Source of the DNA: a virus
Length of the DNA: 51,840 bases
Reading direction: 5' to 3' (one strand)
Virus record (IMG/VR): IMGVR_UViG_3300041809_000571
Location: 1 to 51,840 of that record
Shown: positions 25,807 through 40,433 of the stretch, piece after piece
Layout of the letters: each line of letters opens with the position of its first letter
Position numbering within the stretch: the first letter of the stretch is position 1
The notes under the pieces: generated by a model
Seen by the model: only the letters and a program-made list of their open reading frames with translations
Told to the model about the DNA's origin: nothing
Databases searched by the model: none
Program-made: the position numbers and the translations under genes

Positions 25807-26024
25807 GCAAGCTCCATTTCATAATCTTCGGGATGGGGAACGGGAGGGCCGCTGTAATAGGGATTGCGGTACCACACGTCCCGGTCAGAAAGAATCCACG
25901 CACGGTCGGGGTGCATGGCACCCACGTTCGTAGCATACTCCCTATCAGCTTCCGCTTGAGTTGCCATGTGGTCGGGCGGGTCAGGCTCAAAATCAAACAT
26001 AGAAGCTTCGGAATCGAATGCCAT
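25803..26024 (-). CDS. hypothetical acidic protein (first gene of operon P9)
   Basis: ATG 26024 follows cassette P9 (GGGAGGaaacaccATG). Confidence 0.5.
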   Translation of the reverse strand: MAFDSEASMFDFEPDPPDHMATQAEADREYATNVGAMHPDRAWILSDRDVWYRNPYYSGPPVPHPEDYEMELA

Positions 26025-26031
26025 GGTGTTT

Positions 26032-26054
26032 CCTCCCACTCTCAGTATACCACG
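26032..26054 (-). promoter_or_regulatory. conserved promoter+SD cassette P9
   Basis: tcgTGGTATACTgagagtGGGAGG. Confidence 0.6.
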
Positions 26055-26109
26055 AGATACACCAAAGTTACATGAATTTTTTTCTATGGAACCCTTATGT
26101 AGGAGAATT

Positions 26110-28149
26110 ATGGCTGGAAGCAGTCGTTTCAAAAAAGGCGGAATGATTGGTAAGCTGGTGTCGGAGCAGATAGCGAATGCTCCCCAACTGCTTAACGCCA
26201 TAGACTTTATTGAGTCCATACAGGGATTCAATGTGGAGTTGTTCCCCATCCAGAGGATGATTGTCAAGGCGATATTCGCCGTTCCCTTCGACTACAAGCC
26301 CAAGCCCGTGCCCATGTTTGACGTGTTCCGGGAGAAGCTCAACCGCATCGTGTCCGAAGAGGAATGCCTCCACATTCTCCACGAAGAGGGCAGATGCAAC
26401 ATCGGCGACTGGCGGGACATCCCCGAGCGGGGATACAATGAAGCCTGCATTATCGCCGGTCGTCGTGGTGGTAAGTCGGAGGTCGTAGCGGCCATTGGGG
26501 GATACAAGCTGTATCTCCTCCTTAACCAGAAATCTCCGCAGGAGTATTTTGGTCTCGTGCCCGGCAGTCCGATAGACTTCACCTTTTTGGCGCAGGACGA
26601 CTCCGGGTCCAACCGCCTCTACAACAAGCTCCGGGAAGGTGTCAACCGGGCACCCTTCTTCGGACCTTACCTCAAAAGCAGCAGCGGGAGCGTTTTGAAG
26701 TTCGTGACGGAGTCGGACCGGGGCAAGCCCGAGGTCACTCCCACGGTCATCTGCGAGTCCCGGCCTTGCACCACCAATGCTACCCGGTCGCCTTCCAACG
26801 TGTTTCTGGCCTTGGACGAGTTCGCCCACTTCCGGTCGGAGGTGGGGAGTACCTCGGATGAGGTCTACGGAGCGGCGAAGCCCTCCACGGCAAACTTCCA
26901 CCACGCCGAGCTTCCCAGTGGCGAATGGATAAGCAAAAAGACCATGCAGTTGCTTCCCCCCGAGGAGTACCGGGAGTTTCAGGACTCGCTTGTTCTCAGC
27001 ATTTCTTCGCCCATGACTCGTGTTGGTAAGATGTACGAGCTTCACAAGTTGGCGTTAGAGAAGGGCAAGGACTCCAACATCTTCACCATGCGGGTTTCCA
27101 CCGCTGAGATGAACCCCGAGATTCTGTCCAAGTTCCTGCACGACGAGTACGAGACCAACTCCCTGACCTTCAAGGCGGAGTATGGCGGGCAGTTCTTGGA
27201 CTCCTCCGAAACCTACGTCACTGAGGCCCAGATTAGGGCTTGTACGGATGTACAATACACGGATGAGCAATTCCCCAAGCCCATCCCCAGCACCGCCCGG
27301 CTGAACCTCGTTCGGTTCCACCCCTCCTGTGTGGGCAGACAATATTTCTGGGGTGTTGACCTTGGTATGATGAAAAACGCAACAGCCGTTGCTATCGGAC
27401 ATTTGGAGCACACGGGCGGTAAGAACCCCATCACCCTCGTTTATGACTACATCGACCGCATGATGGTGGGGGAGAAGTTCGAGGGTCCCGGCGTGGAGAT
27501 GCTCCCCGGAATTGAGAAATACGTCAAGTATCAAGCCCTGCCCTTGGAGGACATCCTCCTGTGGCTCCGGGCGCTCAACCGGGTGATGCCCTGCTACCGG
27601 GGGGTCACTGACCAGCACGGTGGTCAGCAACTCGTCCAATTGCTGGAGATAAACCAAATCTACAACGTGGAGCTTATCAACCTCACCACGGTTATCAATA
27701 GCCAGATGGCGTTCAGCTTAAAAGGCTACATGGATAACAAGCGGTGCCGGTTCCCCTATGTGCCCAAGTTCATGGATGAAATCCGGCTGGTAGAAGCGGA
27801 ATACGTCGGCAAATACCAGATTCGAGTGCAGGCCCCCGAGGAGAAGGGAGCCACGGATGACATGTGCGATGCCGTGGAAGAGGTCGCTTGGGTAGCCCAG
27901 AAGTGGTTGATGGAAGAAGGTGGGCTACGACAGGACCCCGGAGGCACCAGTCTGGCAATGCAGGAACAGTTGATGAAAACCCCTGTTCCTATTATGAACC
28001 TCGATAGTGTGTCTATGACGGAAATCAAGGTCATAGAAAGAATGCGTAAGTTACAGAGTTCATTGATGATGTCCCCCGGAACCTCGGTGGTAAGAAACCC
28101 CTTCCATGTGCGTGGAACTGCCCGTATGGGAGGCCGGGGAAGGAGATAA
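26110..28149 (+). CDS. terL: terminase large subunit
   Basis: Walker A IIAGRRGGKSE, Walker B LALDEF, C-terminal nuclease-sized domain; SD AGGAG; about 680 aa. Confidence 0.8.
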   Translation: MAGSSRFKKGGMIGKLVSEQIANAPQLLNAIDFIESIQGFNVELFPIQRMIVKAIFAVPFDYKPKPVPMFDVFREKLNRIVSEEECLHILHEEGRCNIGDWRDIPERGYNEACIIAGRRGGKSEVVAAIGGYKLYLLLNQKSPQEYFGLVPGSPIDFTFLAQDDSGSNRLYNKLREGVNRAPFFGPYLKSSSGSVLKFVTESDRGKPEVTPTVICESRPCTTNATRSPSNVFLALDEFAHFRSEVGSTSDEVYGAAKPSTANFHHAELPSGEWISKKTMQLLPPEEYREFQDSLVLSISSPMTRVGKMYELHKLALEKGKDSNIFTMRVSTAEMNPEILSKFLHDEYETNSLTFKAEYGGQFLDSSETYVTEAQIRACTDVQYTDEQFPKPIPSTARLNLVRFHPSCVGRQYFWGVDLGMMKNATAVAIGHLEHTGGKNPITLVYDYIDRMMVGEKFEGPGVEMLPGIEKYVKYQALPLEDILLWLRALNRVMPCYRGVTDQHGGQQLVQLLEINQIYNVELINLTTVINSQMAFSLKGYMDNKRCRFPYVPKFMDEIRLVEAEYVGKYQIRVQAPEEKGATDDMCDAVEEVAWVAQKWLMEEGGLRQDPGGTSLAMQEQLMKTPVPIMNLDSVSMTEIKVIERMRKLQSSLMMSPGTSVVRNPFHVRGTARMGGRGRR

Positions 28150-28207
28150 GGAGAAACACGCCACTACCCAACCCATATATGAACTCACTTTGCTTCGAGG
28201 GACTATT

Positions 28208-28663
28208 ATGTTTTTCATCGACCCCACCGCCGCTCAGCTAGGTCCGCTGGATTGGCTTCTGACCTTAGTCAAGAACCTCCATTGGCCGGTTATCGTCGTC
28301 CTCATATGGAAGGGGCGGGGATGGCTTAATAAGCTGGAGAAACAAGGGCAAGACTTGATTGATACCATCAAATCCAGTCACGCCGACCTGCAAATTCATG
28401 CCAAAGAAGTCAAGGAGTTCAAAGATACCTTCGCCACGGTCTCCAAGACGTTGACGGACCAAACAAAAGACATCAAAGACCTTAATGCTAGCGTCCAGCA
28501 GTTCATGGAGCAGGCTAAGCATCAGACCGAAGTTCACACCGAGCAGTTCCGGTTGATACGAGGGATATCCGACCAACAGACCGCCCTCGGCACGAATCAG
28601 ACCAACATCACTAATGGTATGCAGAGGGTGGTTGAACAACTCATATCCCTCGTAAAGGAGTAG
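28208..28663 (+). CDS. membrane-anchored coiled-coil protein
   Basis: GAGGGActattATG; N-terminal hydrophobic helix followed by a heptad-like region. Confidence 0.5.
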   Translation: MFFIDPTAAQLGPLDWLLTLVKNLHWPVIVVLIWKGRGWLNKLEKQGQDLIDTIKSSHADLQIHAKEVKEFKDTFATVSKTLTDQTKDIKDLNASVQQFMEQAKHQTEVHTEQFRLIRGISDQQTALGTNQTNITNGMQRVVEQLISLVKE

Positions 28664-28665
28664 TC

Positions 28666-28917
28666 ATGGAATCGCTGAATACGGACTTTGCCCCGGAGGG
28701 CGTAAAAGAAGAATCCTTTGCCATGGGGGCAGCGGCTACTCCTATCGAGCCGATGACCGCAGTCCCAGTGGTTAATGCCGCACCTTTCGAGACCCTCAAC
28801 CATACCATCGGTGTTTTTGAGAAGCTCTGCGTGACGACCGGAGCGGCAAAGCTAAGGACCAAGTTGCGGATACGAGTGCCCAAACTCCACACCTTGGTTG
28901 GTAAACTCACACTCTAA
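28666..28917 (+). CDS. hypothetical protein
   Basis: AAGGAGtagtcATG. Confidence 0.45.
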   Translation: MESLNTDFAPEGVKEESFAMGAAATPIEPMTAVPVVNAAPFETLNHTIGVFEKLCVTTGAAKLRTKLRIRVPKLHTLVGKLTL

Positions 28918-28952
28918 ATTTGGGCTTTCCCGCCCTTATTAGGGAGAAGACT

Positions 28953-29357
28953 ATGACACCAAAAGACCTACTGATTTTTGATTCCACCGCCGCTGCGGAC
29001 GGAATCTGGTACAAGATTGACAATGTCTCAGCGCTATCCATCCACATTCTCAATCTGGAGGCTAGCTGCGACACGTGGATTGAAGTGTCCAATAACCCCC
29101 TTTGCGATTATCTGCTTTATGGTGCGGCAAGCACCGCCGTGGTGGGTGTGGCAATGACCGGCAACCTCGGCACGGGAGGCAGTCCTTCGCCGCCCTCCAG
29201 TATGGATGAGCAGGATATCAGCTACAGCCTTGATGGCACGCAGTGCATGTGGTCTCCCTCTTGTCTTGTTTGGAAGTATGTCCGGGTGCGCAAGTCGTCC
29301 ACCGGCACTCCCATTGACGAGACCAAGGCTTACCTGTTCGGACAGGTCAACACCTAA
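28953..29357 (+). CDS. hypothetical beta-rich protein
   Basis: AGGGAGAAGactATG; the ORF-track TTG start was rejected. Confidence 0.45.
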   Translation: MTPKDLLIFDSTAAADGIWYKIDNVSALSIHILNLEASCDTWIEVSNNPLCDYLLYGAASTAVVGVAMTGNLGTGGSPSPPSSMDEQDISYSLDGTQCMWSPSCLVWKYVRVRKSSTGTPIDETKAYLFGQVNT

Positions 29358-29519: not shown

Positions 29520-29556
29520 GGACGGTGACTGACGACCGGGATTATTGTCACCGTCC
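29520..29556. terminator. 10-bp perfect-stem hairpin (GGACGGTGAC-N17-GTCACCGTCC) in the convergent gap, abutting the stop of the glycosyltransferase fusion gene
   Basis: the two stem arms are exact reverse complements; no U-tract follows on either strand. Confidence 0.35.
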
Positions 29557-31901
29557 TACTTTACCAAGAACAGCACCCGTTTTCCTTCCGGTGTTTCCAC
29601 GATTTCTTCGATGTGTTTCGGTATAATTTTGCTCAACTGCTTGTGGTAGGAAGACCCCAAGGGACACACCGCTGCAACCTTGAATCCCCTTGCCACGGCA
29701 CGGGCGACTTTCGCCCCAAGCAAGGTTCCTCGCCAGTCTTGACTCACTCCGCCCAGTGCTGCCGGTATTGCAATGGGTGTCATGGTTGGCGCTGCCATTA
29801 TTGAACCCGGAGGAGGAAGCCCCTTATTAGATTGAACCGGAGGAGTCAGGGGATGCGTTTGAGGTGAGGGTTTTGTTTGATTGAACCAAGGACGAACCCC
29901 CGTTGCCATTTCGTGGATTTTCCACATATCCTCTGTACTGGTAATTTGGGTCATAGCCTCCATGCTTTTCAGGTCCGAGTGATTCCTCCACTCAAAGATT
30001 ACATATTTGGAAAGCCGTCTGGGGTGTATTCCGGCTTTTCCAAGTACCTGTCCCACCCACCGGTCCTCAGCCCACTCCCCATCAAATTGGGCATTTACTA
30101 GCAATTTCAGGGAACGTTCAGAAAGCCAGTAGGCTCCCCCACTAACATATGGAAACTTCACGGTACCCTTGGGAAAATCAGGAATTCCCATGTTTGGGCA
30201 ACCCGCATCATGGGGAGGCGCATAAATACCCGCAAAGTCATCTGTCACTAATTCAAACTTATTCATGTTCAGATAACTGTCATCATCAGCCTTAACTAAT
30301 CGTTTATATCCATGGTTAAGTGTCCATTGGAAAAGGGCCTTGGATTTTAGAGTAAGAGATAGGTAGTCATCTGGTACTCCTAACCGTTTACCAGTGAATA
30401 CTTCAACGGTGTACCCGGCCTTCCGTGCTAAGGGAATCCAAGTCTTCTCTTGCATAGCTAAACGTGCTCGGTATTTCGGCTCGTCACAGGTGAGTATTCC
30501 AATAAGGGTTTCTTTGATGGGGGTAGGAATTGGGCGGTTATCAACCTCCTTGGGTACTACCCCGTCTATCACCACCAGCCTGTCGTCATCTATGCTTTCA
30601 ACCCGGAACTCTCTCGTCTCGCACTTCCATGGAATCCTAGCGGCTATCTGCTCGGGAGAGAAGACATCTTCGATTATGTAGACCCCGTTGGGTTTCAGGA
30701 TACGGGGAATTAGGACTGAGGCAGTCAGGATTTGATGCTCGGTCTGGTGTGAGCCGTCGTCTATGATGAGGTCGAAACCGGTGCCTAACATCTCGGCAGC
30801 CCGGAGTAACGACCCTTCGTCGCTCTGGTCGCACTGGAAGGACTTAATCCGGCCTTTGTTGATTAGGATGTCCGGCTTGATGTCTAAAGCGTATATTTCT
30901 GCCTGTGGGAAGTACTCTTCCCACATGAACAGGCTGGCTCCTACGATGTAGTCTTTTGGAGCCATGATAGCAGGGTAGCCTATGCCGATTTCCAAGACCT
31001 TCTTGATGTCCCTACCTTCGAGAAGCTCGTGGTAGTAAGGTGTATAGTCATGACGCACCGACACGGTCTTATCGGTCCTCCACTTTTTGGCGAGCTTGCA
31101 AAGACTCGTTTCTACGGGCATTTCCACCTCGTGTCTCCTTTTCAATTGCTCAAATAAACAGGTCGGGTCATACCGCCTGTTAGGGTCAAGCTTACTTCCT
31201 TCGTGCCAGTGAGAGGAGCTTATGTGAGCGGCATACGACTTAGGAGAGATATTCCAAGTCACTCCTCCTTTGACAAAGTGAAACCGAAGTGACGGCGGCA
31301 CGGCATCAAGCACAATGGGGGGTTTTATGTAGCGGGTAAGAGAGAACTCCGGGATAGCCTTCCGAAACATCCATGGGCCTATCACCATCCAATCCTGCGG
31401 GAGCTTCAACTTCGCCGTGTTCATCAGTTCAATGTGGGCGGCGATGTGCTGTAAGATGGGAGCTTGCTTTGGAGCTTTGAAGATACACCCGGTGATGCAC
31501 TTCATGTTGATATCTTCGGGGGCTGACGGCGGTGGGTCGTAAATCGACACGAGGCTGTTGGAATTGGGATTGTACGCCGTGAAAACATATGGGTCGGGAA
31601 AATCAAACGGGCGTAAGCAGACGGTATCCATATCCACGTACCATCCTCCCACGTGACGGATAAGCTGCACACGGAAGTAATCGGAGAAGTGCGACAGGTG
31701 GATGAAGTCTTTCCGGTCTTTGACGAGCGGTATTTCGTGGATGTCGTGAATGATGGTCCCAGCCGGAATCCCCTTTGTAGGCTCCGACGTATAAAGATGG
31801 AACTCGTGCCCATGGTCTTGGAAGGAGCGGATGCATAGCTTTTGAAGGTTATCCAACTTGGGGCCGCACCACACACCATTGATGATTTTATTGTCTGTCA
31901 T
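29556..31901 (-). CDS. tri-domain fusion: GT32-type DxD glycosyltransferase, SAM-dependent methyltransferase and GT31/Fringe-like galactosyltransferase
   Basis: N-terminus KIINGVWCGPK...GGWYVDMDTV (Gly_transf_sug-like); middle VLEIGIGYPA...DLIIDDGSH (class I MTase motifs I and post-I); C-terminus LVKADDDSYLNMN (GT31 DDD). ATG 31901 in ATGA overlap with the GT11 stop. Confidence 0.7.
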   Translation of the reverse strand: MTDNKIINGVWCGPKLDNLQKLCIRSFQDHGHEFHLYTSEPTKGIPAGTIIHDIHEIPLVKDRKDFIHLSHFSDYFRVQLIRHVGGWYVDMDTVCLRPFDFPDPYVFTAYNPNSNSLVSIYDPPPSAPEDINMKCITGCIFKAPKQAPILQHIAAHIELMNTAKLKLPQDWMVIGPWMFRKAIPEFSLTRYIKPPIVLDAVPPSLRFHFVKGGVTWNISPKSYAAHISSSHWHEGSKLDPNRRYDPTCLFEQLKRRHEVEMPVETSLCKLAKKWRTDKTVSVRHDYTPYYHELLEGRDIKKVLEIGIGYPAIMAPKDYIVGASLFMWEEYFPQAEIYALDIKPDILINKGRIKSFQCDQSDEGSLLRAAEMLGTGFDLIIDDGSHQTEHQILTASVLIPRILKPNGVYIIEDVFSPEQIAARIPWKCETREFRVESIDDDRLVVIDGVVPKEVDNRPIPTPIKETLIGILTCDEPKYRARLAMQEKTWIPLARKAGYTVEVFTGKRLGVPDDYLSLTLKSKALFQWTLNHGYKRLVKADDDSYLNMNKFELVTDDFAGIYAPPHDAGCPNMGIPDFPKGTVKFPYVSGGAYWLSERSLKLLVNAQFDGEWAEDRWVGQVLGKAGIHPRRLSKYVIFEWRNHSDLKSMEAMTQITSTEDMWKIHEMATGVRPWFNQTKPSPQTHPLTPPVQSNKGLPPPGSIMAAPTMTPIAIPAALGGVSQDWRGTLLGAKVARAVARGFKVAAVCPLGSSYHKQLSKIIPKHIEEIVETPEGKRVLFLVK

Positions 31902-32701
31902 AACTTTATCCACCTCTGGGGAACAATGTCCGAAGGGTCTTTGGTACACCCGGCAAACCATTTTTTGGGTGCAATCACAATCCTTCCCTCTGGTGAACAC
32001 TCCCCGAACCAAGCTCCCCACCACCCGAAAGAACTATTGGGAAGGATAGCGTGCTTGCAAAGTCCCATGAGGAAAAGGTCTTCGTGTTCTGTGCCTTGAC
32101 CTGTATCCCCACTTCCCATCCGATTGTGCTTTATGACCCGAAGACCTTGGAAGTTTTGCTCACACCACTCCGGGTCGTCGGAGAATATGAAAAACTTAAC
32201 GTTCTCCTTGCGTTCTTGGATGTATGCCAGTGCCACTTTATAATACTCCATCGTCATGTTGCCGTGGTAGGCGGCGACGGTCGGTATTAGGTAGTCCGTC
32301 CTGCGGACATGCATAAAGGCACTATTAGGGCTAGCCAGAATCTCGTGAGCTATCTCTTGCGATTGCTCACTCACCGGGTTTCGCAGGGAAAGCTCCGACC
32401 GGACCAACCTCTCGTCAAAGTACTTTTCTGTCTGCCAGCATCCGATGAAATGCGTGCCATTCGGAAGAGTGTACACATTCTTATCGTAAGTGAAGATTGG
32501 CTCTGCATACACTGGGCCACGAATATCTTTGGTGAAAGTTACCTTGGTGTTGAATACCCCTAGCCCATAGGCACGATGGCATCCAACCCCCAGCCCACTT
32601 GTGTAAAAGAACAACTCCTCTTTACGTGCCTTTGAGACTGACCGACCGAAGGCGTATTGAAACATCTGATTTCCTAAACCGCCCTCTAAACGAACAAGCA
32701 T
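31898..32701 (-). CDS. alpha-1,2-fucosyltransferase (GT11 family)
   Basis: hallmark motif I GGLGNQMFQYA right after the start (MLVRLEGGLGNQMFQYAFG). Confidence 0.8.
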   Translation of the reverse strand: MLVRLEGGLGNQMFQYAFGRSVSKARKEELFFYTSGLGVGCHRAYGLGVFNTKVTFTKDIRGPVYAEPIFTYDKNVYTLPNGTHFIGCWQTEKYFDERLVRSELSLRNPVSEQSQEIAHEILASPNSAFMHVRRTDYLIPTVAAYHGNMTMEYYKVALAYIQERKENVKFFIFSDDPEWCEQNFQGLRVIKHNRMGSGDTGQGTEHEDLFLMGLCKHAILPNSSFGWWGAWFGECSPEGRIVIAPKKWFAGCTKDPSDIVPQRWIKL

Positions 32702-32703
32702 AG

Positions 32704-33405
32704 CTAATTCCCACCCTTCCACTCACCCTGATTGAGTTTTTCTAGGTGTCGTATCTTTGGGACGAAACTCTTCAAATCCCCCGTCATCCAACGCTCTGGT
32801 GACACCAAGTACTTTAGGGCGGGAAAACAATACGCCGGGGATAGGATTCTAGCGGGAGGATTGCTGGCAAGATAGCAGTTTAGGTGGGATTCGTCATGCC
32901 AGATGGCGATAATCCCATTGCTGCTGTCGATATCCACATTTTTTGCCAAGGTTTTACACATCCCCAAGAAAGCTTTGGAGTCACCACCTTGTAAACACCC
33001 TTGGTAGTAATTGGGGGGGTTTCCCTTTACGCACGCCGTAGACTCCGGGTTACGCTCGAAGGTCGTAACATAGCCGGGGTGAAGGACAGCGGTTATGCCG
33101 TCCGAAAAAACTTCTTCCCCCTCAATCTTGCTGCACGCAAGCATGTCGATATCCATGTAGAAAAGTTGGTCGTAACGAGAAAGAGATGTCTCTTGCTCAA
33201 GGATTGCGTGGTAACGCATGAGCGTAGCGTGAGGCCATCCTAAGTGGGCGTGAGGCACCTTTATGGCGTCAAACGAATCTTCGCTGTCCGTAAACAGCAT
33301 CACATCGTGCGGAGGAAAGAACTCATCCAAAGAGTTAATCAGGGGGGAGACATACCGCATATACTGTTCTCCTCCCGTGGCAATCAGCAAAATCGCTGTT
33401 TTCAT
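32704..33405 (-). CDS. GT6-family glycosyltransferase (histo-blood-group A/B transferase-like, bacterial BoGT6a type)
   Basis: N-terminus MKTAILLIATGGEQY and the block IWHDESHLNCYLASNPPARILSPAY, characteristic of the GT6 family; ATGA coupling with the upstream gene. Confidence 0.85.
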   Translation of the reverse strand: MKTAILLIATGGEQYMRYVSPLINSLDEFFPPHDVMLFTDSEDSFDAIKVPHAHLGWPHATLMRYHAILEQETSLSRYDQLFYMDIDMLACSKIEGEEVFSDGITAVLHPGYVTTFERNPESTACVKGNPPNYYQGCLQGGDSKAFLGMCKTLAKNVDIDSSNGIIAIWHDESHLNCYLASNPPARILSPAYCFPALKYLVSPERWMTGDLKSFVPKIRHLEKLNQGEWKGGN

Positions 33406-34622
33406 AGGGTTTTTATCTCCAATCTGCGGTGTGCCCTAGCGATGTCATCCCTAACCTCGAATACCCAGTCAGGATGTGCAGCAAGTATCTGGCTTTTCAT
33501 GCTCTCAATGGTCGGATACCCGTTGTTTCCGTCAAATGCCCGGATATCATCCACAAGGAGGACAATGTCCGACTTACCCCAGCCAAGAATAGCGTCAAGT
33601 TCGCCTTGTGCCGCACTATCAACGCTTCCCCGCACCGTATTGTCTCCAGACCAGTGAGCATCCAGCCAGAAAATGGTGGGTTTGTTCAGGAGTGGAAAAA
33701 TCTTATACAGCACCAAAGCACTATCACCCTGATAAAGATGAATATTTTCTTTGCCGATAAACCGTCCTTGGCAATGCCTGTAAAAGTCCGAGCTTAACTC
33801 AATAGAGTAAGCGTGCTCGAAGAACCCATGGACCTCCGCTAAAGTATCTCCTCCGCAGGTTCCGGTTTCCACAAGAAGCGGGGTTTTGAATTTGAGAGCA
33901 TACTCTACAATAGTCCACTGCTTATAGGCAGGGGGTGGTGATGGGTTATGCCATGCCATGGTTATCTCCTCGATTACAGGGGTTTTCATTACTCTCTCAA
34001 TCTCCGCCCACGGGACCGATGGGAACGAGGGGGATGGTACTCGCTTAACAGCGGCATTAGTCTTGTGAATGGTGGAAACCAATAAGGTCAAGTCAGCAAG
34101 GTCACACCAACGGTCCATGGGAATTTTCCGCATAAAGGCGGTGTCGGCTCCCTGCACAAGATTCTCGAACTTGTTCTTCTCCCAGATGGACCGACGCCAC
34201 GCCGGGGCGGCAAGCCATTTCTGTGGAGTGAGGTTTTTGTAAATAAACCCCTGCTCGGTGCCATGCAGGTAGTAGTAAAGTGTGGTGGTGCCACAGATGT
34301 CATACTGAGGGTCGGTGAGAGGTTGAACCTGCTTGGCTACCCTATTGGAGGCGTAAAAGTCGTCGTCATCCCATACGATGGCGATTTCTCCCGTGGAGTT
34401 CTCCATGCAGATGTTCATGAGTTGCCCGTGACGGAGCTTCTCGCCGGGCAGCCGGACGTATTTGATGCGGGGGTCATTGGGGAGTAGGTCCTTGATGGGG
34501 TCCGTCCCGTTATCAACGATAACCCACTCCAACTCTGGGTGAGTTTGAGACTGGAAACACGAGATACACCGGGGCCAGAACTCCCTGCGGTTGTGCGTCG
34601 GCGTGAGACAAGAAACTAGCAC
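33402..34622 (-). CDS. GT2 glycosyltransferase fused to a C-terminal SAM-dependent methyltransferase-like domain (GTG start)
   Basis: LVSCLTPTHNRREF (GT2 N-terminal motif), VWDDDDFY (DxD); C-terminal LVETGTCGGDT (MTase-like); GGAGAGagaaataGTG with TAGTG overlap. Confidence 0.7.
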   Translation of the reverse strand: MLVSCLTPTHNRREFWPRCISCFQSQTHPELEWVIVDNGTDPIKDLLPNDPRIKYVRLPGEKLRHGQLMNICMENSTGEIAIVWDDDDFYASNRVAKQVQPLTDPQYDICGTTTLYYYLHGTEQGFIYKNLTPQKWLAAPAWRRSIWEKNKFENLVQGADTAFMRKIPMDRWCDLADLTLLVSTIHKTNAAVKRVPSPSFPSVPWAEIERVMKTPVIEEITMAWHNPSPPPAYKQWTIVEYALKFKTPLLVETGTCGGDTLAEVHGFFEHAYSIELSSDFYRHCQGRFIGKENIHLYQGDSALVLYKIFPLLNKPTIFWLDAHWSGDNTVRGSVDSAAQGELDAILGWGKSDIVLLVDDIRAFDGNNGYPTIESMKSQILAAHPDWVFEVRDDIARAHRRLEIKTL

Positions 34623-35053
34623 TATTTCTCTCTCCGTTCCCGGCGCTTAAGTTCAAACCTCCGCAGGTAGTCCACCGCCGCTTGTAGGATGATTTGGTTG
34701 TCCCGAAAAGAAGCTAGCCCCCAGTCGCAACGGGTGCAAAGCAGTCCTCGGACTTCCCTCGTCGCCGGGTCTCGGTCGATATGGGAAGATGACCGGTCCA
34801 TACTGGGGATGGGGTCATGGCAGACCGCACAGGCCCGGTGGAGTTTCTCCCAGAGAACGACTATCTCCGCATCCGACATGCCGTTCTGGTACTTGCGCAC
34901 ATGCGGGGTGTTCTGTTCCTTAAAACAGAGCTTACACCGGCTACGTTTGCCACTGGGCTGGGACTTGCAGTTGCCAAAGTTATCCAGCGGCAGCCACGCT
35001 TTGCAGCCGGGGCACCACTTCTCTTTGTCATTGAACATCCTGTGTCTGCCCAT
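34622..35053 (-). CDS. Endonuclease VII-like (HNH) nuclease with N-terminal Cys cluster
   Basis: CAVCHDP...SHIDRDPATREVRGLLCTRCDWGL matches the Endo VII H-N-H core. Start is uncertain (ATG 35053, 35038 or 35110); the region upstream of 35053 is AT-rich and looks intergenic. Confidence 0.6.
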   Translation of the reverse strand: MGRHRMFNDKEKWCPGCKAWLPLDNFGNCKSQPSGKRSRCKLCFKEQNTPHVRKYQNGMSDAEIVVLWEKLHRACAVCHDPIPSMDRSSSHIDRDPATREVRGLLCTRCDWGLASFRDNQIILQAAVDYLRRFELKRRERREK

Positions 35054-35184
35054 AAGTGCCCTGTATTTAACCCCTTTGAATTTATCTCCAATTAGGGGTC
35101 CATAGTTCATTTCTTTGATTTTAAGAGTTTTTCGACTATCAACCTCACTATTGAGGCGTCCAAATCGGACACAGGAGAGATAAC

Positions 35185-35973
35185 ATGTCAAGACTATCGA
35201 CTACTCAGATTCTTCAAAACACCAAGAACTACACCGTGTACCCCACGGTTCCCCTTGCGTTGACCCTACCCGCTGTCACTACGGCAAATGACTTGCTCGT
35301 TTGTCTCGTGTTTGCACAAAGGTCTTCGTATGGATTCAACACCGACAACCTGACGGCGGAAACCGTCGCCCCGGTTGTTTCCGACGACAAGAACAACACT
35401 TGGACTCTACGACAGAGCCTAATCAACCTGTATCAGGAACTTTCCGCATCTCCGCCACAATCACCGCCTGTTATCTCCCCTGACGCCTCTTGGAATTTCC
35501 CGAGCGTGTATCTTTTCACCGCTCCGGTCAGTGTCGCCAACGGGCAGAATGTGTACGTCACTGACGCCGGATTGGGCGACTATGTGGCTTCCCCGCCCAT
35601 CGTTTCCCCGCCCATCGCTTTGGGTCGTCCCGTGTTTGACGGCGGTATCAAGGCCCTGTTGTTTGAAGTCCAAGGCCCCAGCACCGATACCGTGGACACT
35701 TCCGGCAAGACCACAGGCGGTCAGACGGCTCTCGGCTATCACCTGATTACCCCCGGTGGAACCAACCGGCTGGTTATCGAGGCTGGTGTGCTCATCGACA
35801 GTTCCGCTCTCGGCTTGGGCACAGGAGCGACGTATCAGCACTCCGCCGCTTACCCGGCTGGAAGCTCCTACTACTTGGTGCAGTCCACCACCCAGACGAC
35901 CGCCGTTGCGTCGGCTGGATTCTCCAACCCCGTGAACTATGCGGGCGGCGTCATCGCCATTGCAATTGTGTAA
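35185..35973 (+). CDS. putative structural/fibre-like protein (Thr/Ser/Gly-rich)
   Basis: GGAGAGataacATG; N-terminal module resembles those of the 2815..4611 protein. Confidence 0.5.
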   Translation: MSRLSTTQILQNTKNYTVYPTVPLALTLPAVTTANDLLVCLVFAQRSSYGFNTDNLTAETVAPVVSDDKNNTWTLRQSLINLYQELSASPPQSPPVISPDASWNFPSVYLFTAPVSVANGQNVYVTDAGLGDYVASPPIVSPPIALGRPVFDGGIKALLFEVQGPSTDTVDTSGKTTGGQTALGYHLITPGGTNRLVIEAGVLIDSSALGLGTGATYQHSAAYPAGSSYYLVQSTTQTTAVASAGFSNPVNYAGGVIAIAIV

Positions 35974-36960: not shown

Positions 36961-37149
36961 ATGAAGAATTGGAAGACGAAGAAGGCCGATGGGAAGACAT
37001 TCAGTACGTTCCGGGTGAATATCGGGGGGCACCATGTCCTCGTGGACTGCGTGCGGATGAAGCAGGCGAAGGACTATGTCCGCAAGCAGTTCCCCGAGTT
37101 TATTCGTAATCACGGCAATAACTCCTTCACCATCAAGAGGGTGAAGTGA
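36961..37149 (+). CDS. hypothetical small basic protein
   Basis: AGGAGGAATCATG. Confidence 0.45.
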   Translation: MKNWKTKKADGKTFSTFRVNIGGHHVLVDCVRMKQAKDYVRKQFPEFIRNHGNNSFTIKRVK

Positions 37150-37973
37150 ATCTAACCCATGGTAGCCTGTTTTCCGGCATCGGAATGATGGACTACGGGT
37201 TGGAGTTGGCGGGATGGAAAACAGTTTGGCAGGTGGAGAATAACGAGTACTGCCAAGCTCTGCTCCGAGAGCATTGGCCGGTTACGCAAAAGTTCAGCGA
37301 TGTGAGGTCTTGTGGACGACACAATCTCGAACCTGTCACCCTTATCAGCGGAGGATTTCCTTGCCAGAATATCTCCGAAGCTGGAAAACTGGAAGGACTC
37401 GGAACTCCCGATAGCCCCACCGACCGCAGCGGCCTTTGGTTCCATTTCCGTCGCATCATCCATGAACTCAGACCTGCTTGGGTTCTGGTTGAGAACGTGG
37501 TTAGGCTCATGCTTAGAGACGATGGGGATACCGTCCTCGCCGATTTGGAAGCGGAGGGTTACGAAAGGGTGCCGCTCGTGGTGGGAGCTTCGGATTGCGG
37601 AGCACCACATAAGAGGCAACGGGTCTTTGTGCTTGCCCACCGCCACGACCCCGACAGCGATTATGTTCCCGCTCCCGGAGTGGAGGCCGCAAGACTTTTT
37701 CCAACTCAAATCCGGGAGATTGCGGAAGCGCAGCGAAGATGGGCACGAGCGAAGCATGAATTGGGCACAAGAACTTGCGGTGAGGGCGGTGATTCAGAAT
37801 CCTGCGCTCGAACCTACCATGGAATTGTGCGAAGATTTTTTGGGAATTCCACGTGGCTGGAGCAGACTCACGCCCTCGGGAACACAATCGTACCTGTCAT
37901 CCCGTGCCTTATCGGAGGCTACGTTGCGGCGGCGGAGAAGGAAATGGAAAGTCGAAACCTCAGTCCCCGATGA
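37146..37973 (+). CDS. DNA (cytosine-5)-methyltransferase
   Basis: motif I LFSGIGMMDYG, motif IV GGFPCQ, motif VI VLVENV, motif VIII KRQRVFV; GTG start in GTGA overlap with the upstream gene. Confidence 0.85.
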   Translation: MNLTHGSLFSGIGMMDYGLELAGWKTVWQVENNEYCQALLREHWPVTQKFSDVRSCGRHNLEPVTLISGGFPCQNISEAGKLEGLGTPDSPTDRSGLWFHFRRIIHELRPAWVLVENVVRLMLRDDGDTVLADLEAEGYERVPLVVGASDCGAPHKRQRVFVLAHRHDPDSDYVPAPGVEAARLFPTQIREIAEAQRRWARAKHELGTRTCGEGGDSESCARTYHGIVRRFFGNSTWLEQTHALGNTIVPVIPCLIGGYVAAAEKEMESRNLSPR

Positions 37974-38433
37974 CGACGGGGAATAAGGCCCGGACTCGCA
38001 TCTCCACGTACCCCATGAAATGGCTTGACACCGACTGCCCCGGCATCCGGGGAGGGGCGGTGATGTACATTTCGATAATGTCTTCAAACTTCTCTTCCCT
38101 GAACATCAAGAAGTTGGCGATGATTTCCTGCGTCCAATCGTCAAGGGAGTCATTCAACGGCTCATAACCAAACTCCTTGGCGACCATGGCGGTAGCTTCC
38201 CGGATTTTGTTGGGGTACATGTTCAAAAACTCGGTGAGATTGTAAGGCAGGATGAATCCCGGAACCGCTTCCGGCTCCCATGCGACCTTGAGCGCAGCGA
38301 GAAACTTGTCGTCCGCTGCCGTCAACTGAATCTCTGGAGGAGCAATCGGTAACCCCCGGCGCTCCATTATCTGGTATTCCTTCGCTAGAATTTTGGCTTT
38401 GAGCCGGACTACGGGGTCCTGTTCGTTGGTCAT
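37960..38433 (-). CDS. hypothetical protein (driven by cassette P10)
   Basis: GGAGGGatatATG; converges on the methyltransferase gene. Confidence 0.5.
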   Translation of the reverse strand: MTNEQDPVVRLKAKILAKEYQIMERRGLPIAPPEIQLTAADDKFLAALKVAWEPEAVPGFILPYNLTEFLNMYPNKIREATAMVAKEFGYEPLNDSLDDWTQEIIANFLMFREEKFEDIIEMYITAPPRMPGQSVSSHFMGYVEMRVRALFPVVIGD

Positions 38434-38437
38434 ATAT

Positions 38438-38460
38438 CCCTCCACTCTCAGTATACCTCA
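38438..38460 (-). promoter_or_regulatory. conserved promoter cassette P10 (tgaGGTATACTgagagtGGAGGG)
   Basis: paired divergently with P11. Confidence 0.55.
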
Positions 38461-38493
38461 CTCCCCACAATTTTATGAGGATTTTTTTACCGG

Positions 38494-38515
38494 CGTGGTA
38501 TACTGTAAGTGGAGG
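38494..38515 (+). promoter_or_regulatory. conserved promoter+SD cassette P11 (plus strand)
   Basis: gcgTGGTATACTgtaagtGGAGGcaccATG. Confidence 0.6.
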
Positions 38516-38519
38516 CACC

Positions 38520-38873
38520 ATGCCTGCTCAAGTCCGCACGTGTATCAAGTGCTATCGTGATTTTGTCTTGCTCCCCGGCAAGCCGGGGTTATCAACCCAT
38601 TGTCCCAACTGCTCGGAAGAGACTACCGAGATGAAGATGGCAAAGGTCGCTTGGGACGGAAAACACACGCAAATCATTGAAATCACGGACAATCGAAAAG
38701 AGGCTGAGCGTTTTAATAAAGCGCAGAACCGTGGCTCCTTCGGTCCACTGGCGACCTTCGGCGGTAAAGGCGAGGGGGCGGTGGGGAAGGAATCGGGTAA
38801 AATCGGCACAGGAGCGGAGCTTGGGGCGGTGTATCACTCTCCCCTGCGGGAGAAGCATTCACTTAAACGTTGA
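38520..38873 (+). CDS. zinc-ribbon protein (CIKCYRDF...HCPNCSEE)
   Basis: ATG 4 nt after the cassette SD. Confidence 0.55.
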   Translation: MPAQVRTCIKCYRDFVLLPGKPGLSTHCPNCSEETTEMKMAKVAWDGKHTQIIEITDNRKEAERFNKAQNRGSFGPLATFGGKGEGAVGKESGKIGTGAELGAVYHSPLREKHSLKR

Positions 38874-38880
38874 GGTGTGT

Positions 38881-40180: not shown

Positions 40181-40433
40181 GGCTGAGACTGTAGGGAAGC
40201 ATGGACCGGCGCACACCGGAGTCTTTCTGTGGTTCTACCTCGGGTTTGTAGTCGAAGTCCGCAGGCTCGTGGGGATGCATATCCAACCACTCCGCCACGA
40301 CACTCCAAACTTCATCGTCAGAATCGAGGACATCCAAGGTAAGTAGGGGATTCTCTCCGAAGTCTTCCGATTGAAACTCCCGCCACGGAAGTTCTCCCGC
40401 AATCTTCATTCCCCCTCGGGTCAAGAAAACCAT
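40128..40433 (-). CDS. hypothetical acidic protein
   Basis: 1-nt stop/start overlap with the Endo VII gene; its 3' end overlaps 39671..40180 by 53 nt. Confidence 0.4.
   Translation of the reverse strand: MVFLTRGGMKIAGELPWREFQSEDFGENPLLTLDVLDSDDEVWSVVAEWLDMHPHEPADFDYKPEVEPQKDSGVRRSMLPYSLSPMLRRASAAGYPAFRRG

What the first reader, a model, noticed from the sequence alone, without database searches (positions are those of the whole stretch)
29556..31901. 781-aa three-domain fusion: DxD glycosyltransferase + SAM methyltransferase + Fringe-like GT31
A single ORF strings together three catalytic signatures.
- A Gly_transf_sug-like motif, SDYFRVQLIRHVGGWYVDMD.
- Class-I methyltransferase motifs, VLEIGIGYPA...DLIIDDGSH.
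- A GT31-type motif, KADDDSYLNMN.

A two-transferases-plus-methylase polyprotein is unusual. It implies three consecutive decoration steps in one polypeptide, in the order sugar, O-methyl, sugar.
Basis: partly seen in the sequence, partly recalled or inferred. Interest (0 to 1): 0.7.

Follow-up and report, generated by a model that had tools for sequence, protein, structure and literature searches.

The report
Phage three-enzyme glycan-building fusion protein
One 781-residue protein of an uncultured jumbo phage really does join two sugar-adding enzymes and a sugar-methylating enzyme, plus a small unknown end domain, and it sits in a swappable glycan-synthesis gene island; fusions of this kind are already known in giant viruses.

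Summary
An uninterrupted minus-strand ORF (29556-31901, 781 aa) has an identical product on two independent assemblies.

It has four modules, not three:
- a GT32-like DxD glycosyltransferase, aa 1-258;
- a MycE/TylE-type sugar O-methyltransferase, aa 261-447, that keeps the metal and base residues;
- a GT31 glycosyltransferase with a DDD motif, aa 462-636;
- a disordered Pro-rich linker followed by an orphan 60-aa C-terminal domain.

Both catalytic junctions fall exactly on the termini of stand-alone homologues, so this is a true end-to-end gene fusion.

The ORF ends a soluble operon (GT2-X, GT6, GT11, fusion). The operon lies in a 4.2-kb low-GC variable island between endonuclease VII and the terminase block of a jumbo phage. 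The nearest isolate is Tunturiibacter phage Tunturi_5. Relatives carry the same modules split or fused in other ways, and the C-terminal domain always comes last.

Most likely it is part of a cytoplasmic assembly line for a methylated heteroglycan on a phage-chosen acceptor, most plausibly a virion protein. The acceptor and the reaction order are not shown.

PBCV-1 A064R (GT-GT-MT) is a characterised precedent, so the fusion is unusual but not unprecedented. I rate it a new variant of a known kind, of moderate interest.

The parts
29556..31901 (-). Whole ORF, 781 aa plus stop: GT32-like, O-methyltransferase, GT31, linker, C-terminal domain.
   Evidence: An identical product is encoded on two independent contigs.
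31128..31901 (-). Module D1, aa 1-258: GT32-like (Gly_transf_sug) GT-A glycosyltransferase. The DxD motif is D90-M-D92, at 31626-31634.
   Evidence: Pfam PF04488 scores 28.9 bits, above the gathering score of 23. Forty homologous segments were aligned, with D74, R77, D90 and D92 conserved at 90% or more. Core pLDDT is 80-95. A stand-alone 241-aa homologue exists in L004.
31119..31141 (-). D1/D2 seam: a Shine-Dalgarno-like AAGGAG...GAGGTGG followed by the ATG of Met261. This is the retained start signal of the former methyltransferase gene. Glu260 (GAA) occupies the position of the former stop codon.
   Evidence: D1 ends ...LFEQLKRRHEV, compare the P0005 C-terminus ...LFEQLKQKHGVS. M261-PVETSLCKLAKKW matches the N-termini of P0019, P0010 and P0039.
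30561..31121 (-). Module D2, aa 261-447: MycE/TylE/SpnK-type SAM- and metal-dependent sugar O-methyltransferase. Motif I LEIGIG is at aa 303-308, DDGSH at aa 381-385 (30747-30761), and E411-D412 at 30666-30671.
   Evidence: phmmer gives 3ssm E 2.5e-18 and 8ia9 E 2.3e-15. Foldseek gives E 1e-12. It matches phrog_21658 methyltransferase. pLDDT is above 90. Conserved residues are listed. Stand-alone homologues of 183-185 aa exist in L005 and L011.
30519..30560 (-). D2/D3 seam, aa 448-461 (VVPKEVDNRPIPTP). It is followed by Ile462 (ATC) at the position where stand-alone GT31 genes have their start Met.
29994..30518 (-). Module D3, aa 462-636: GT31 (Galactosyl_T, Fringe-like) GT-A glycosyltransferase. 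The DDD motif is at aa 539-541 (30279-30287) and EDRW at aa 612-615.
   Evidence: Pfam PF01762 scores 29.3 bits, above the gathering score of 23. Foldseek finds B3GNT2 and B3GalT6 at E about 1e-7 to 1e-6. pLDDT is 85-98. Stand-alone homologues of 195-228 aa exist.
29739..29993 (-). Pro-rich linker, aa 637-721, mostly predicted disordered. Its length and sequence vary between relatives.
   Evidence: pLDDT is below 50 for aa 637-652 and 673-721, with one moderate-confidence helix at aa 656-667.
29559..29738 (-). C-terminal domain ('tail'), aa 722-781: an alpha-beta-alpha-beta-beta domain, highly conserved, always at the extreme C-terminus of a glycosyltransferase.
31898..32722 (-). Upstream gene: GT11 (alpha-1,2-fucosyltransferase family). 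Its stop overlaps the ATG of the fusion ORF.
   Evidence: Pfam PF01531 E 1e-22. phrog_2644. The ATGA overlap is shown.
32704..33405 (-). GT6 family glycosyltransferase (the ABO / alpha-1,3-Gal(NAc) transferase family).
   Evidence: Pfam PF03414 E 7.6e-21. It is 60% identical to the N-terminal half of the GT6-GT31-tail fusion in L006.
33402..34622 (-). First gene of the operon: a GT2 domain (aa 1-213) fused to an unassigned 180-aa domain. That second domain is a separate gene in relatives.
   Evidence: Pfam PF00535 E 1e-18. The GT2 half is 94% identical to the N-terminal half of the L005 GT2-GT11 fusion. The C-terminal half is 57% identical to a stand-alone 187-aa protein in L006.
29785..33985 (.). 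Variable island. Relatives share about 84% nucleotide identity with the window on both sides but none here. GC is 0.49-0.51 against 0.55-0.56 in the flanks. Both borders lie inside ORFs: in the linker of the fusion protein and at the domain junction of the GT2 protein.

Best explanation
The ORF encodes one soluble, four-module enzyme.

The modules:
- An N-terminal GT32-like DxD glycosyltransferase. CAZy knowledge predicts a retaining, alpha-linking enzyme.
- A minimal MycE/TylE-type Mg2+- and SAM-dependent sugar O-methyltransferase.
- A GT31 glycosyltransferase with a DDD motif. CAZy knowledge predicts an inverting, beta-1,3-type enzyme.
- A flexible Pro-rich tether carrying a 60-aa C-terminal domain of unknown partner.

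Origin: it arose by end-to-end fusion of neighbouring genes.

Context: it is the last cistron of a translationally coupled operon (GT2-X, GT6, GT11, fusion). The operon has no membrane-spanning component, flippase or polymerase. Together these proteins are inferred to build a short, methylated, probably fucose-containing heteroglycan in the cytoplasm of the infected cell.

Proposed working model (inferred):
- The conserved GT2 domain starts the glycan on a conserved acceptor.
- The variable modules extend and cap it.
- The conserved tail docks the last enzyme, or the complex, on a conserved partner.

The acceptor I consider most likely is a virion protein, as in mycobacteriophages and chloroviruses.

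The operon is a swappable island with constant ends. Its content therefore differs between related phages, like a serotype locus.

Shown versus inferred:
- Shown here: the ORF, the modules, the intact motifs, the fusion seams, the island borders and the module shuffling.
- Inferred: catalytic activity, sugar identities, reaction order, the role of the tail, and the acceptor.
For: - **ORF integrity:** an uninterrupted ORF with an identical product on two assemblies.
- **Domain assignments:**
- **Model:** four folded modules separated by low-confidence linkers; the tail model has pLDDT 85.6.
- **D1 and D3 motifs:** the D1 DxD and the D3 DDD and EDRW motifs are conserved at 90% or more among homologues.
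- **D2 catalytic residues:** D382, H385 and D412 align with MycE Asp275, His278 and Asp304. This uses the alignment with a 20-residue tag offset; the residue roles come from PMC9275233.
- **Seams:** both junctions coincide with the termini of stand-alone homologues.
- **Module shuffling:** modules occur separately or in other fusions at the syntenic locus. Tail-bearing proteins include GT32-GT32-GT31, GT11-?-GT31, GT2-GT32-GT31, GT2-GT31, GT32-GT2 and GT32 alone.
- **Solubility:** no predicted transmembrane helix in any of the four proteins.
- **Island borders:** the borders and the lower GC are.
- **Phage identity:** the large terminase is 44% identical over 92% of its length to the 308.7-kb Tunturiibacter phage Tunturi_5.
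- **Mycobacteriophage parallel:** D2 is 31% identical to mycobacteriophage Omega gp17, which lies directly after the major head protein gene and a GT gene.
- **Sugar-nucleotide link:** the L004 cassette carries epimerase/GDP-mannose-dehydratase-type genes on either side of its GT11 gene.
- **Precedent for the virion target:** PMC9614988, and Freeman et al. 2023 as summarised in PMC12619734.
Against: - No acceptor is identified. No capsid gene was recognised next to the cassette; its neighbours are the terminase and three small unknown genes.
- The nearest isolate, Tunturi_5, has no such cassette next to its terminase gene, and its genome gave no tblastn match to this protein. The cassette is therefore accessory.
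- A C5 DNA methyltransferase and two endonuclease VII genes lie nearby, which also fits a DNA-modification role.
- MycE Tyr208 is not clearly conserved.
- D2 aligns only with MycE chain residues 184-327, so the region before it is missing.
- The relative orientation of the domains is not predicted (pTM 0.42).
- The alignment behind the whole-protein model is shallow, 27 sequences.
- A retained Shine-Dalgarno-like site plus ATG at Met261 means a shorter MT-GT31-tail product could also be made.
Confidence: 0.6

Rival explanations
1. The cassette hypermodifies phage DNA. A C5 cytosine methyltransferase and a TET-like oxygenase would make 5hmC, and the glycosyltransferases would then build a methylated oligosaccharide on it to block host nucleases.
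For: - A C5 DNA methylase (PF00145, E 1e-38) lies 2.5 kb from the operon, and endonuclease VII genes flank the region.
- Relatives have two C5 methylases, a weak match to the adenine-methylase family MethyltransfD12, and Vsr at the same place.
- Pyle et al. showed that phage GT-A and GT-B enzymes add mono- to trisaccharides to 5hmC, and found such clusters near structural genes (preprint 10.1101/2023.12.21.572611).
- The tail domain is net basic in its sequence.
Against: - No Tet_JBP or other 2OG-oxygenase domain was found in the ORFs scanned against Pfam.
- The GT6, GT11, GT31 and GT32 families act on glycan acceptors. Five GT domains plus methylation exceed any DNA glycan in that study's abstract.
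- The C5 methylase is separated from the operon by three unrelated genes on the other strand.
- Only 52 kb of the 364-kb genome could be inspected, so a distant oxygenase cannot be excluded.
Confidence: 0.15
2. The enzymes remodel a host cell-envelope glycan (LPS, capsule, EPS or S-layer glycan) during infection, for superinfection exclusion or to prevent progeny being trapped on lysed cells. They would use host lipid carriers and export machinery.
For: - GT2, GT6, GT11, GT31 and GT32 are the families typical of O-antigen and capsule clusters.
- A variable, low-GC island with conserved flanks resembles bacterial serotype loci.
- PHROGs files the GT11 and GT6 homologues under 'moron, auxiliary metabolic gene and host takeover'.
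Against: - The cassette has no initiating phosphoglycosyl transferase, flippase, polymerase or any membrane-spanning protein.
- No relative of the D3-tail unit was found in one genome for each of 185,579 bacterial and archaeal species. The modules therefore circulate among phages, not hosts.
- A conserved tether and docking domain is not a feature of O-antigen GTs (my knowledge).
Confidence: 0.2
3. The long ORF is an artefact or is not used as such. Either three genes were collapsed by a sequencing or assembly error, or the ORF is mainly expressed as separate products from internal starts.
For: - Both junctions are former gene ends.
- A Shine-Dalgarno-like AAGGAG/GAGGTGG and an ATG are retained at Met261.
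- The same modules are separate genes in relatives.
Against: - The same 781-aa product is encoded on two independent assemblies, and the window is 100% identical to one of them across the ORF.
- There is no stop codon or frame change.
- The D2/D3 junction has lost its start codon, ATC at residue 462, so at least MT-GT31-tail is one chain.
- Other long fusions with the same layout exist, for example P0122 (784 aa), P0124 (824 aa) and the 828-aa ORF in L011.
- An additional internal start at Met261 remains possible. It would add a product rather than abolish the fusion.
Confidence: 0.05

Closest known systems
Chlorovirus PBCV-1 A064R (638 aa; D1 beta-L-rhamnosyltransferase, D2 alpha-L-rhamnosyltransferase, D3 2-O-methyltransferase), with A111/114R (three GT domains)
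   Same: A virus-encoded, soluble, single polypeptide with two glycosyltransferase domains and a class I SAM sugar O-methyltransferase. In PBCV-1 it builds and caps the end of the virus's own glycan, and variation in it produces antigenic classes (PMC9614988; PMC7826918). Several giant-virus multidomain GT/MT proteins are among the fold matches.
   Different: - The domain order is GT-MT-GT, not GT-GT-MT.
- The domain families differ: GT32-like, MycE-type MT and GT31 here, against a GT-A domain reported as similar to GT34, a new GT family and another class I MT there.
- The host is a bacterium and the virus a tailed jumbo phage.
- This protein has an extra Pro-rich tether and an orphan C-terminal domain.
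- Activity and acceptor are untested here.
- Homology of the domains to A064R was not shown.
Mycobacteriophage virion glycosylation genes (e.g. Omega gp16 GT / gp17 MT; Freeman et al. 2023)
   Same: Phage-encoded GT and MT genes placed among virion and packaging genes. D2 is a sequence homologue of Omega gp17 (31% identity; fold TM-score normalised to the target 0.74). Omega gp17 follows the major head protein gene and a GT gene. Glycans on capsid and tail-tube C-termini are reported for these phages (as summarised in PMC12619734).
   Different: There the enzymes are separate genes and the cassette is smaller. Here there are five GT domains, one or two MT-like domains, fusions, a tail domain, and a position next to the terminase rather than next to a recognised capsid gene. 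No glycan data exist for this lineage.
MycE / TylE / SpnK / ThnM1 natural-product sugar O-methyltransferases
   Same: Sequence and fold similarity over the catalytic Rossmann domain. The Mg2+ ligands and the catalytic His are conserved, as DDGSH and ED. These enzymes methylate a hydroxyl of a 6-deoxyhexose already attached to its aglycone.
   Different: D2 aligns only with MycE chain residues 184-327, so the N-terminal region of MycE has no counterpart. Tyr208 is not clearly conserved. The substrate here would be a glycan on a macromolecule, not a macrolide.
Phage 5hmC-glycan DNA hypermodification gene clusters (Pyle et al.)
   Same: Phage GT-A enzymes, sometimes several in series, close to a C5 cytosine methyltransferase and sometimes to structural genes.
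   Different: No TET/5mYOX was found in the window. The GT families and the number of steps differ. No DNA-binding feature has been demonstrated.
Bacterial serotype (O-antigen or capsule) loci with blood-group-like GT sets, e.g. E. coli O86 (from my own knowledge, not checked here)
   Same: GT6, GT11 and a beta-1,3-GT occur together, the enzyme families that make H and A/B-type epitopes. The content is variable and lies between conserved flanks.
   Different: There is no Wzx/Wzy/WecA-type membrane machinery. The island borders lie inside coding sequences. The modules are fused. The modules were not found in bacterial genomes.

Membership tests
GT32-like / Pfam Gly_transf_sug (PF04488) | Profile match above the curated threshold | tested here: met
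   28.9 bits against a gathering score of 23, aa 64-100. Relatives also match Gb3_synth PF04572 and Caps_synth PF05704.
GT32-like / Pfam Gly_transf_sug (PF04488) | DxD metal and nucleotide-sugar binding motif | tested here: met
   D90-M-D92, conserved in at least 90% of 40 homologous segments.
GT32-like / Pfam Gly_transf_sug (PF04488) | GT-A fold | tested here: inconclusive
   The model has an alpha/beta core with pLDDT 80-95, but aa 112-129 and 197-261 are poorly modelled. Foldseek finds the DxD GT-A enzymes SetA and YeGT, but its output does not say which part of the query aligned.
GT32-like / Pfam Gly_transf_sug (PF04488) | Retaining transfer of a hexose from a nucleotide sugar | not testable with these tools
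   Needs an enzyme assay.
MycE/TylE-type SAM- and metal-dependent sugar O-methyltransferase | Sequence and fold similarity of the catalytic domain | tested here: met
   phmmer E 2.5e-18 (3ssm) and 2.3e-15 (8ia9). Foldseek E 1e-12.
MycE/TylE-type SAM- and metal-dependent sugar O-methyltransferase | Mg2+ ligands Asp275 and Asp304 and catalytic His278 | tested here: met
   D382, H385 and D412 align with them (alignment, 20-residue tag offset). They are conserved in at least 90% of 56 homologues. The residue roles come from PMC9275233.
MycE/TylE-type SAM- and metal-dependent sugar O-methyltransferase | Active-site Tyr208 | tested here: inconclusive
   It aligns with Ile312 in a loop with indels. 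Tyr309 and Tyr318 lie nearby.
MycE/TylE-type SAM- and metal-dependent sugar O-methyltransferase | N-terminal auxiliary domain of the MycE structural form | tested here: not met
   Only chain residues 184-327 of MycE align. D2 begins at the former gene start, Met261. It is therefore a minimal relative that probably works like MycE, not a member of that structural form.
GT31 / Pfam Galactosyl_T (PF01762) | Profile match above the curated threshold | tested here: met
   29.3 bits against a gathering score of 23, aa 510-629. The relative P0124 also matches Fringe PF02434 weakly, below its gathering score.
GT31 / Pfam Galactosyl_T (PF01762) | DDD (DxD) motif and downstream acidic ED motif | tested here: met
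   D539-D540-D541 and E612-D613-R614-W615, conserved in at least 90% of 28 homologues.
GT31 / Pfam Galactosyl_T (PF01762) | GT-A fold resembling solved GT31 enzymes | tested here: met
   pLDDT 85-98. Foldseek finds B3GNT2 (6wmo, 7jhk) and B3GalT6 (9sp7) at E about 1e-7 to 1e-6.
GT31 / Pfam Galactosyl_T (PF01762) | Inverting beta-1,3 transfer, with a defined donor and acceptor | not testable with these tools
   Needs an enzyme assay.
A064R-type viral multidomain glycan-finishing enzyme | Two GT domains and one sugar methyltransferase domain in one virus-encoded soluble polypeptide | tested here: met
A064R-type viral multidomain glycan-finishing enzyme | Domains homologous to those of A064R | not tested
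   No direct comparison was made. The Pfam and PDB assignments point to different families. A 638-aa unnamed viral protein (M1IF74) is a fold match, but its identity was not checked.
A064R-type viral multidomain glycan-finishing enzyme | Acts on the glycan of the virus's own capsid protein | not testable with these tools
   No isolate and no glycan data.
Phage 5hmC-glycan DNA hypermodification cluster | C5 cytosine methyltransferase in the neighbourhood | tested here: met
   PF00145, E 1.3e-38, at 37146-37973.
Phage 5hmC-glycan DNA hypermodification cluster | 5-methylpyrimidine dioxygenase (TET/JBP-like) in the cluster | tested here: not met
   No Tet_JBP or 2OG-oxygenase match in the window ORFs scanned. 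The rest of the 364-kb genome was not seen.

The most novel reading that the evidence does not exclude
The 4.2-kb island is a phage 'serotype' locus built for combinatorial enzyme assembly. Its borders sit inside coding sequence: after a constant initiating GT2 domain at one end, and before a constant Pro-rich tether and 60-aa docking domain at the other. Recombination between related jumbo phages would then swap whole sets of GT and MT modules and splice them in frame onto the constant parts. The orphan C-terminal domain would dock the last enzyme, or the whole assembly line, onto the virion protein being glycosylated. The result would be variable, methylated, possibly histo-blood-group-like glycan coats on jumbo-phage particles.
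Probability: 0.25. Interest if true: 0.7.

Novelty: new variant of a known kind. Interest (0 to 1): 0.45.

Why it matters
Virus-encoded glycan synthesis is well described for chloroviruses and has recently been shown for mycobacteriophages, but not for jumbo phages of environmental bacteria.

This locus offers three things:
- A compact set of soluble enzymes (five GT domains and one or two MT-like domains) whose products could be reconstituted in vitro.
- Natural 'experiments' in which the same modules are split or fused in different ways. These are useful for asking why glycan enzymes fuse and for engineering multi-step glycosylation catalysts.
- A rare, highly conserved C-terminal domain. 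It is found in only 17 clusters among 1.84 billion representatives and may be a targeting device.

If the acceptor is the virion, the variable island would be a phage analogue of bacterial serotype loci. That has consequences for phage-host recognition and for reading metagenomic 'auxiliary' GT genes.

Tried and rejected
- **First multi-domain alignment (A1).** It was misaligned: the D1 and D2 segments were stacked on D3. Adding query fragments or duplicate copies of the query did not help. A greedy selection of segments that MAFFT places correctly produced A2, which was used for the model.
- **Pfam on D2.** Only sub-threshold methyltransferase hits. The assignment rests on PDB and PHROG matches.
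- **Sequence search of D1 and of D3 plus tail against PDB.** Nothing found.
- **C-terminal half of the GT2 protein.** No Pfam, PHROG or PDB sequence match. It is left unassigned, although its LVETGTCGG motif looks like methyltransferase motif I.
- **Nucleotide search of the operon against 50,697 phage records.** No match.
- **Scan of 185,579 species genomes for D3-tail relatives.** None found.
- **Moraphage jumbo lineage (PMC12619734).** Considered as the source, but not tested. Those genomes reach 307 kb and have predicted Bacteroidota hosts. The terminase here points instead to Tunturiibacter phage Tunturi_5.
- **Freeman et al. 2023.** The paper could not be read because it is not held.
- **Reaction order from domain order.** Rejected as unfounded.


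Full report
**1. The observation**

The minus strand carries an open reading frame from 31901 (ATG) to 29556 (stop). It is 781 codons with no internal stop. The ATG overlaps the stop codon of the upstream gene as ATGA.

The exact protein is encoded on two independent assemblies. One is a 364,142-bp ENA contig and the other a 53-kb Logan contig. The window is 100% identical to the ENA contig across the gene. An assembly or frameshift artefact is therefore very unlikely.

**2. Domain content**

- **D1, sequence level.** Pfam gives Gly_transf_sug at aa 64-100, 28.9 bits against a gathering score of 23.
- **D3, sequence level.** Pfam gives Galactosyl_T at aa 510-629, 29.3 bits against a gathering score of 23.
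- **D2, sequence level.** Pfam methyltransferase hits are all sub-threshold. phmmer against PDB sequences gives MycE (3ssm) at E 2.5e-18. It gives 8ia9 at E 2.3e-15; that entry is called demethylmacrocin O-methyltransferase and SpnK. Both matches cover aa 267-415. PHROGs gives phrog_21658, a methyltransferase.
- **Whole-protein model.** It was built from a hand-checked 27-sequence alignment and has mean pLDDT 74.
  - The folded blocks are aa 1 to about 228 (core pLDDT 80-95), aa 262-447 (above 90), aa 462-636 (85-98) and aa 722-781 (72-91).
  - They are separated by low-confidence segments, and most of aa 637-721 is predicted disordered.
- **Fold matches.** Foldseek against the PDB returns MycE/SpnK at E about 1e-12. 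It also returns the GT31 enzymes B3GNT2 and B3GalT6 (E about 1e-7 to 1e-6) and the DxD GT-A toxins SetA and YeGT (E about 5e-7 to 2e-6).
- **Conserved motifs** (at least 90% conservation among homologues):
  - D1: D90 and D92.
  - D2: E304, G306, D340, D381, D382, G383, H385, E411 and D412.
  - D3: D539-D541 and E612-D613-R614-W615.
- **MycE catalytic residues.** Using the alignment and a 20-residue tag offset, D382, H385 and D412 correspond to MycE Asp275, His278 and Asp304. These are the two Mg2+ ligands and the conserved active-site His (PMC9275233).
  - Tyr208 is not clearly conserved.
  - The region of MycE before chain residue 184 has no counterpart.

All three catalytic modules therefore look intact.

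**3. A fourth module**

The last 60 residues form a confident alpha-beta-alpha-beta-beta domain; a separate model has pLDDT 85.6. It sits behind a Pro-rich linker of variable length and sequence.

It is far more conserved than the enzymes. It is 97% identical to the tail of P0095, while the GT31 part is 52% identical.

A profile search of 1.84 billion representative proteins finds it in only 17 clusters, always at the extreme C-terminus. Every full-length member scanned against Pfam is a glycosyltransferase. The architectures seen are GT32-GT32-GT31, GT11-?-GT31, GT2-GT32-GT31, GT2-GT31, GT32-GT2 and GT32 alone.

**4. The fusion seams**

No homologue covering the whole protein was found among 5.8 billion clustered proteins; the best coverage is 46%. 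Each module recurs with other partners.

- **D1/D2 seam.** D1 ends ...LFEQLKRRHEV, like the C-terminus of P0005 (...LFEQLKQKHGVS). One residue later, M261-PVETSLCKLAKKW matches the N-termini of stand-alone or N-terminal methyltransferase modules such as P0019, P0010 and P0039. A Shine-Dalgarno-like AAGGAG...GAGGTGG precedes ATG261. The old start signals survive, so an additional shorter product is possible.
- **D2/D3 seam.** D2 ends ...DDRLVVIDG, like the C-termini ...DDRLIVIRK. After 14 residues, I462-KETLIGILTC matches the N-termini of stand-alone GT31 proteins (for example MKGEVLIGILSC). The former ATG is now ATC.

The protein is thus an end-to-end fusion of formerly separate genes. It is 'three collapsed genes' in evolutionary history, not in sequencing.

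**5. Genomic context**

The ORF is the last gene of a tightly packed minus-strand operon:
- a GT2 domain plus an unassigned 180-aa domain, 33402-34622;
- GT6, 32704-33405;
- GT11, 31898-32722;
- the fusion ORF.

None of the four proteins has a predicted membrane helix. The operon has no flippase, polymerase or priming transferase.

On one side lies endonuclease VII. On the other lie three small unknown genes and a large terminase. The terminase is 44% identical over 92% of its length to that of Tunturiibacter phage Tunturi_5. That phage is a 308.7-kb jumbo phage of an Acidobacteriota host. No similar cassette lies next to its terminase, and its genome gave no tblastn match to this protein.

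Syntenic loci from related metagenomic contigs of 137-344 kb carry a cassette at the same place with different content:
- **L004:** GT2, LicD/MT, epimerases, GT11, a separate GT32, then GT31-tail, then a second GT31-tail.
- **L005:** a GT2-GT11 fusion, an MT21-like gene, an unknown gene, GT31-tail, then a separate MycE-type methyltransferase.
- **L006-L008:** GT2, GT11, two unknown genes, a GT6-GT31-tail fusion, and a pyruvyl transferase.
- **L011:** GT2, a separate methyltransferase, and a GT11-GT31-GT31-tail fusion of 828 aa.

**6. Island structure**

Nucleotide identity to the closest relatives is about 84% along the backbone. It runs uninterrupted through the terminase block and into the last 230 bp or so of the fusion ORF, the tail-coding part (29554-29784). 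It then vanishes between 29785 and 33985 and resumes at 33986, the GT2 catalytic domain, continuing into endonuclease VII.

The variable segment has GC 0.49-0.51 against 0.55-0.56 in the flanks.

Both borders lie inside coding sequence. One is in the Pro-rich linker, at about aa 706 of the fusion protein. The other is at the domain junction of the GT2 protein, at about aa 212. This explains why modules are so often fused. The constant GT2 head and constant tail flank a region that is exchanged as a block.

**7. What it most likely does**

Established knowledge of the families gives the following expectations:
- GT2, GT11 and GT31 are inverting; GT6 and GT32 are retaining.
- GT11 enzymes use GDP-fucose.
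- MycE-type enzymes methylate a hydroxyl of an attached 6-deoxyhexose through Mg2+ chelation of vicinal hydroxyls.

From this I infer a cytoplasmic assembly line that builds a short, methylated, probably fucose-containing heteroglycan. The fusion protein would contribute two glycosyl transfers and one O-methylation.

The co-occurrence of GT31, GT11 and GT6 recalls the enzymology of H and A/B-type epitopes. This comes from my own knowledge and is a lead only.

The order of steps cannot be inferred from domain order.

For the acceptor I favour a virion protein, for three reasons:
- the operon is entirely soluble;
- D2 is homologous to Omega gp17, which sits directly after the major head protein and a GT gene;
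- there are chlorovirus and mycobacteriophage precedents.

This is inference only. I put it at about 0.4, higher than either alternative target taken alone.

**8. Rivals**

- **DNA glycan hypermodification** is a serious alternative. A C5 cytosine methylase lies 2.5 kb away, and such clusters are known. However, no TET/JBP oxygenase was detected in the window ORFs scanned, and the GT families are glycan-extending ones.
- **Host envelope remodelling** fits the GT families and the serotype-like variability. However, no membrane machinery is present, and the D3-tail unit was not found in 185,579 species genomes.
- **An artefact** is excluded, as described in section 1.

**9. Comparison with what is known, and novelty**

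The closest characterised analogue is PBCV-1 A064R. It is a 638-aa GT-GT-MT enzyme that finishes the capsid N-glycan, and the review describes it as one of the few known enzymes with three transferase domains. Fold search against viral proteins shows many multidomain GT/MT proteins in giant viruses and in uncultured tailed phages.

The principle is therefore known. The new elements are:
- the particular combination and order of domains (GT32-like, MycE-type MT, GT31);
- its occurrence in a jumbo phage of bacteria;
- the orphan tethered C-terminal domain;
- the island architecture with borders inside coding sequence.

I rate it a new variant of a known kind, with moderate interest (0.45).

Noticed in passing
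window 33402-34622 (-): The first gene of the operon is itself a two-domain fusion. The GT2 domain (aa 1-213) is 94% identical to the N-terminal half of a GT2-GT11 fusion in L005. The unassigned 180-aa domain (aa 223-404, with an LVETGTCGG motif resembling methyltransferase motif I) is a stand-alone gene in L006 and L004. That second domain has no Pfam, PHROG or PDB sequence match.
   Followed up: partly
window 29785-33985: This is a variable island. It has no nucleotide similarity to relatives that are about 84% identical on both sides, and its GC is lower. Both borders fall inside ORFs, at the tail linker and at the GT2 domain junction.
   Followed up: yes
window 31898-33405 with 29994-30518: GT11, GT6 and GT31 occur together. 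In animals and in some bacteria these are the enzyme families that make H and A/B-type histo-blood-group epitopes (my own knowledge). A blood-group-like phage glycan is possible but untested.
   Followed up: no
window 38064-39014: A 951-bp segment is present in the window but absent from the otherwise nearly identical 364-kb contig (100% on one side, 99.8% on the other). It overlaps ORFs with HTH and zinc-ribbon-like weak matches. No flanking direct repeat was found. It may be a strain-level indel or a small mobile insertion.
   Followed up: partly
window 35185-35973 (+): A 262-aa Ser/Thr/Pro/Ala/Gly-rich protein with SPP(I/V)xSP repeats. It is conserved at the same position in relatives and has no family match. 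It lies next to the endonuclease VII gene that precedes the glycosylation operon, on the opposite strand. It could be a structural protein or a glycan acceptor.
   Followed up: no
window 28106-29357 (+): Three small genes (about 151-185, 83 and 134-145 aa) lie between the terminase and the cassette. Similar-sized genes hold this position in L005 and L006-L008. They have no function assigned. The last one converges on the tail-bearing GT gene.
   Followed up: no
window 34622-35191 and 40433-41008 (-); 37146-37973 (+): Two endonuclease VII genes and a C5 cytosine DNA methyltransferase surround the cassette. Relatives have two C5 methylases, a weak match to the adenine-methylase family MethyltransfD12, and Vsr at this position.
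   Followed up: partly
window 25966-28149 (+): The large terminase is 44% identical over 92% of its length to Tunturiibacter phage Tunturi_5, a 308.7-kb soil phage with an Acidobacteriota host. This suggests the window comes from a related, larger (364 kb) jumbo phage, possibly of Acidobacteriota.
   Followed up: partly
window 2815-5579 (+); 10591-11208 (-); 11031-11864 (-); 17844-18956 (-); 42857-47671 (-): Other content of the window:
- two proteins with Big_3_5 Ig-like domains;
- a T4 endoV-type pyrimidine-dimer glycosylase;
- a weak radical-SAM match;
- an ATP-dependent DNA ligase;
- a 1604-aa ORF matching only PHROGs of unknown function.
   Followed up: no
L005 10980-11537; L004 11713-12603: In L005 the MycE-type methyltransferase is a separate 185-aa gene placed after the GT31-tail gene. 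L004 carries two consecutive GT31-tail genes. This shows that modules move within the cassette.
   Followed up: yes
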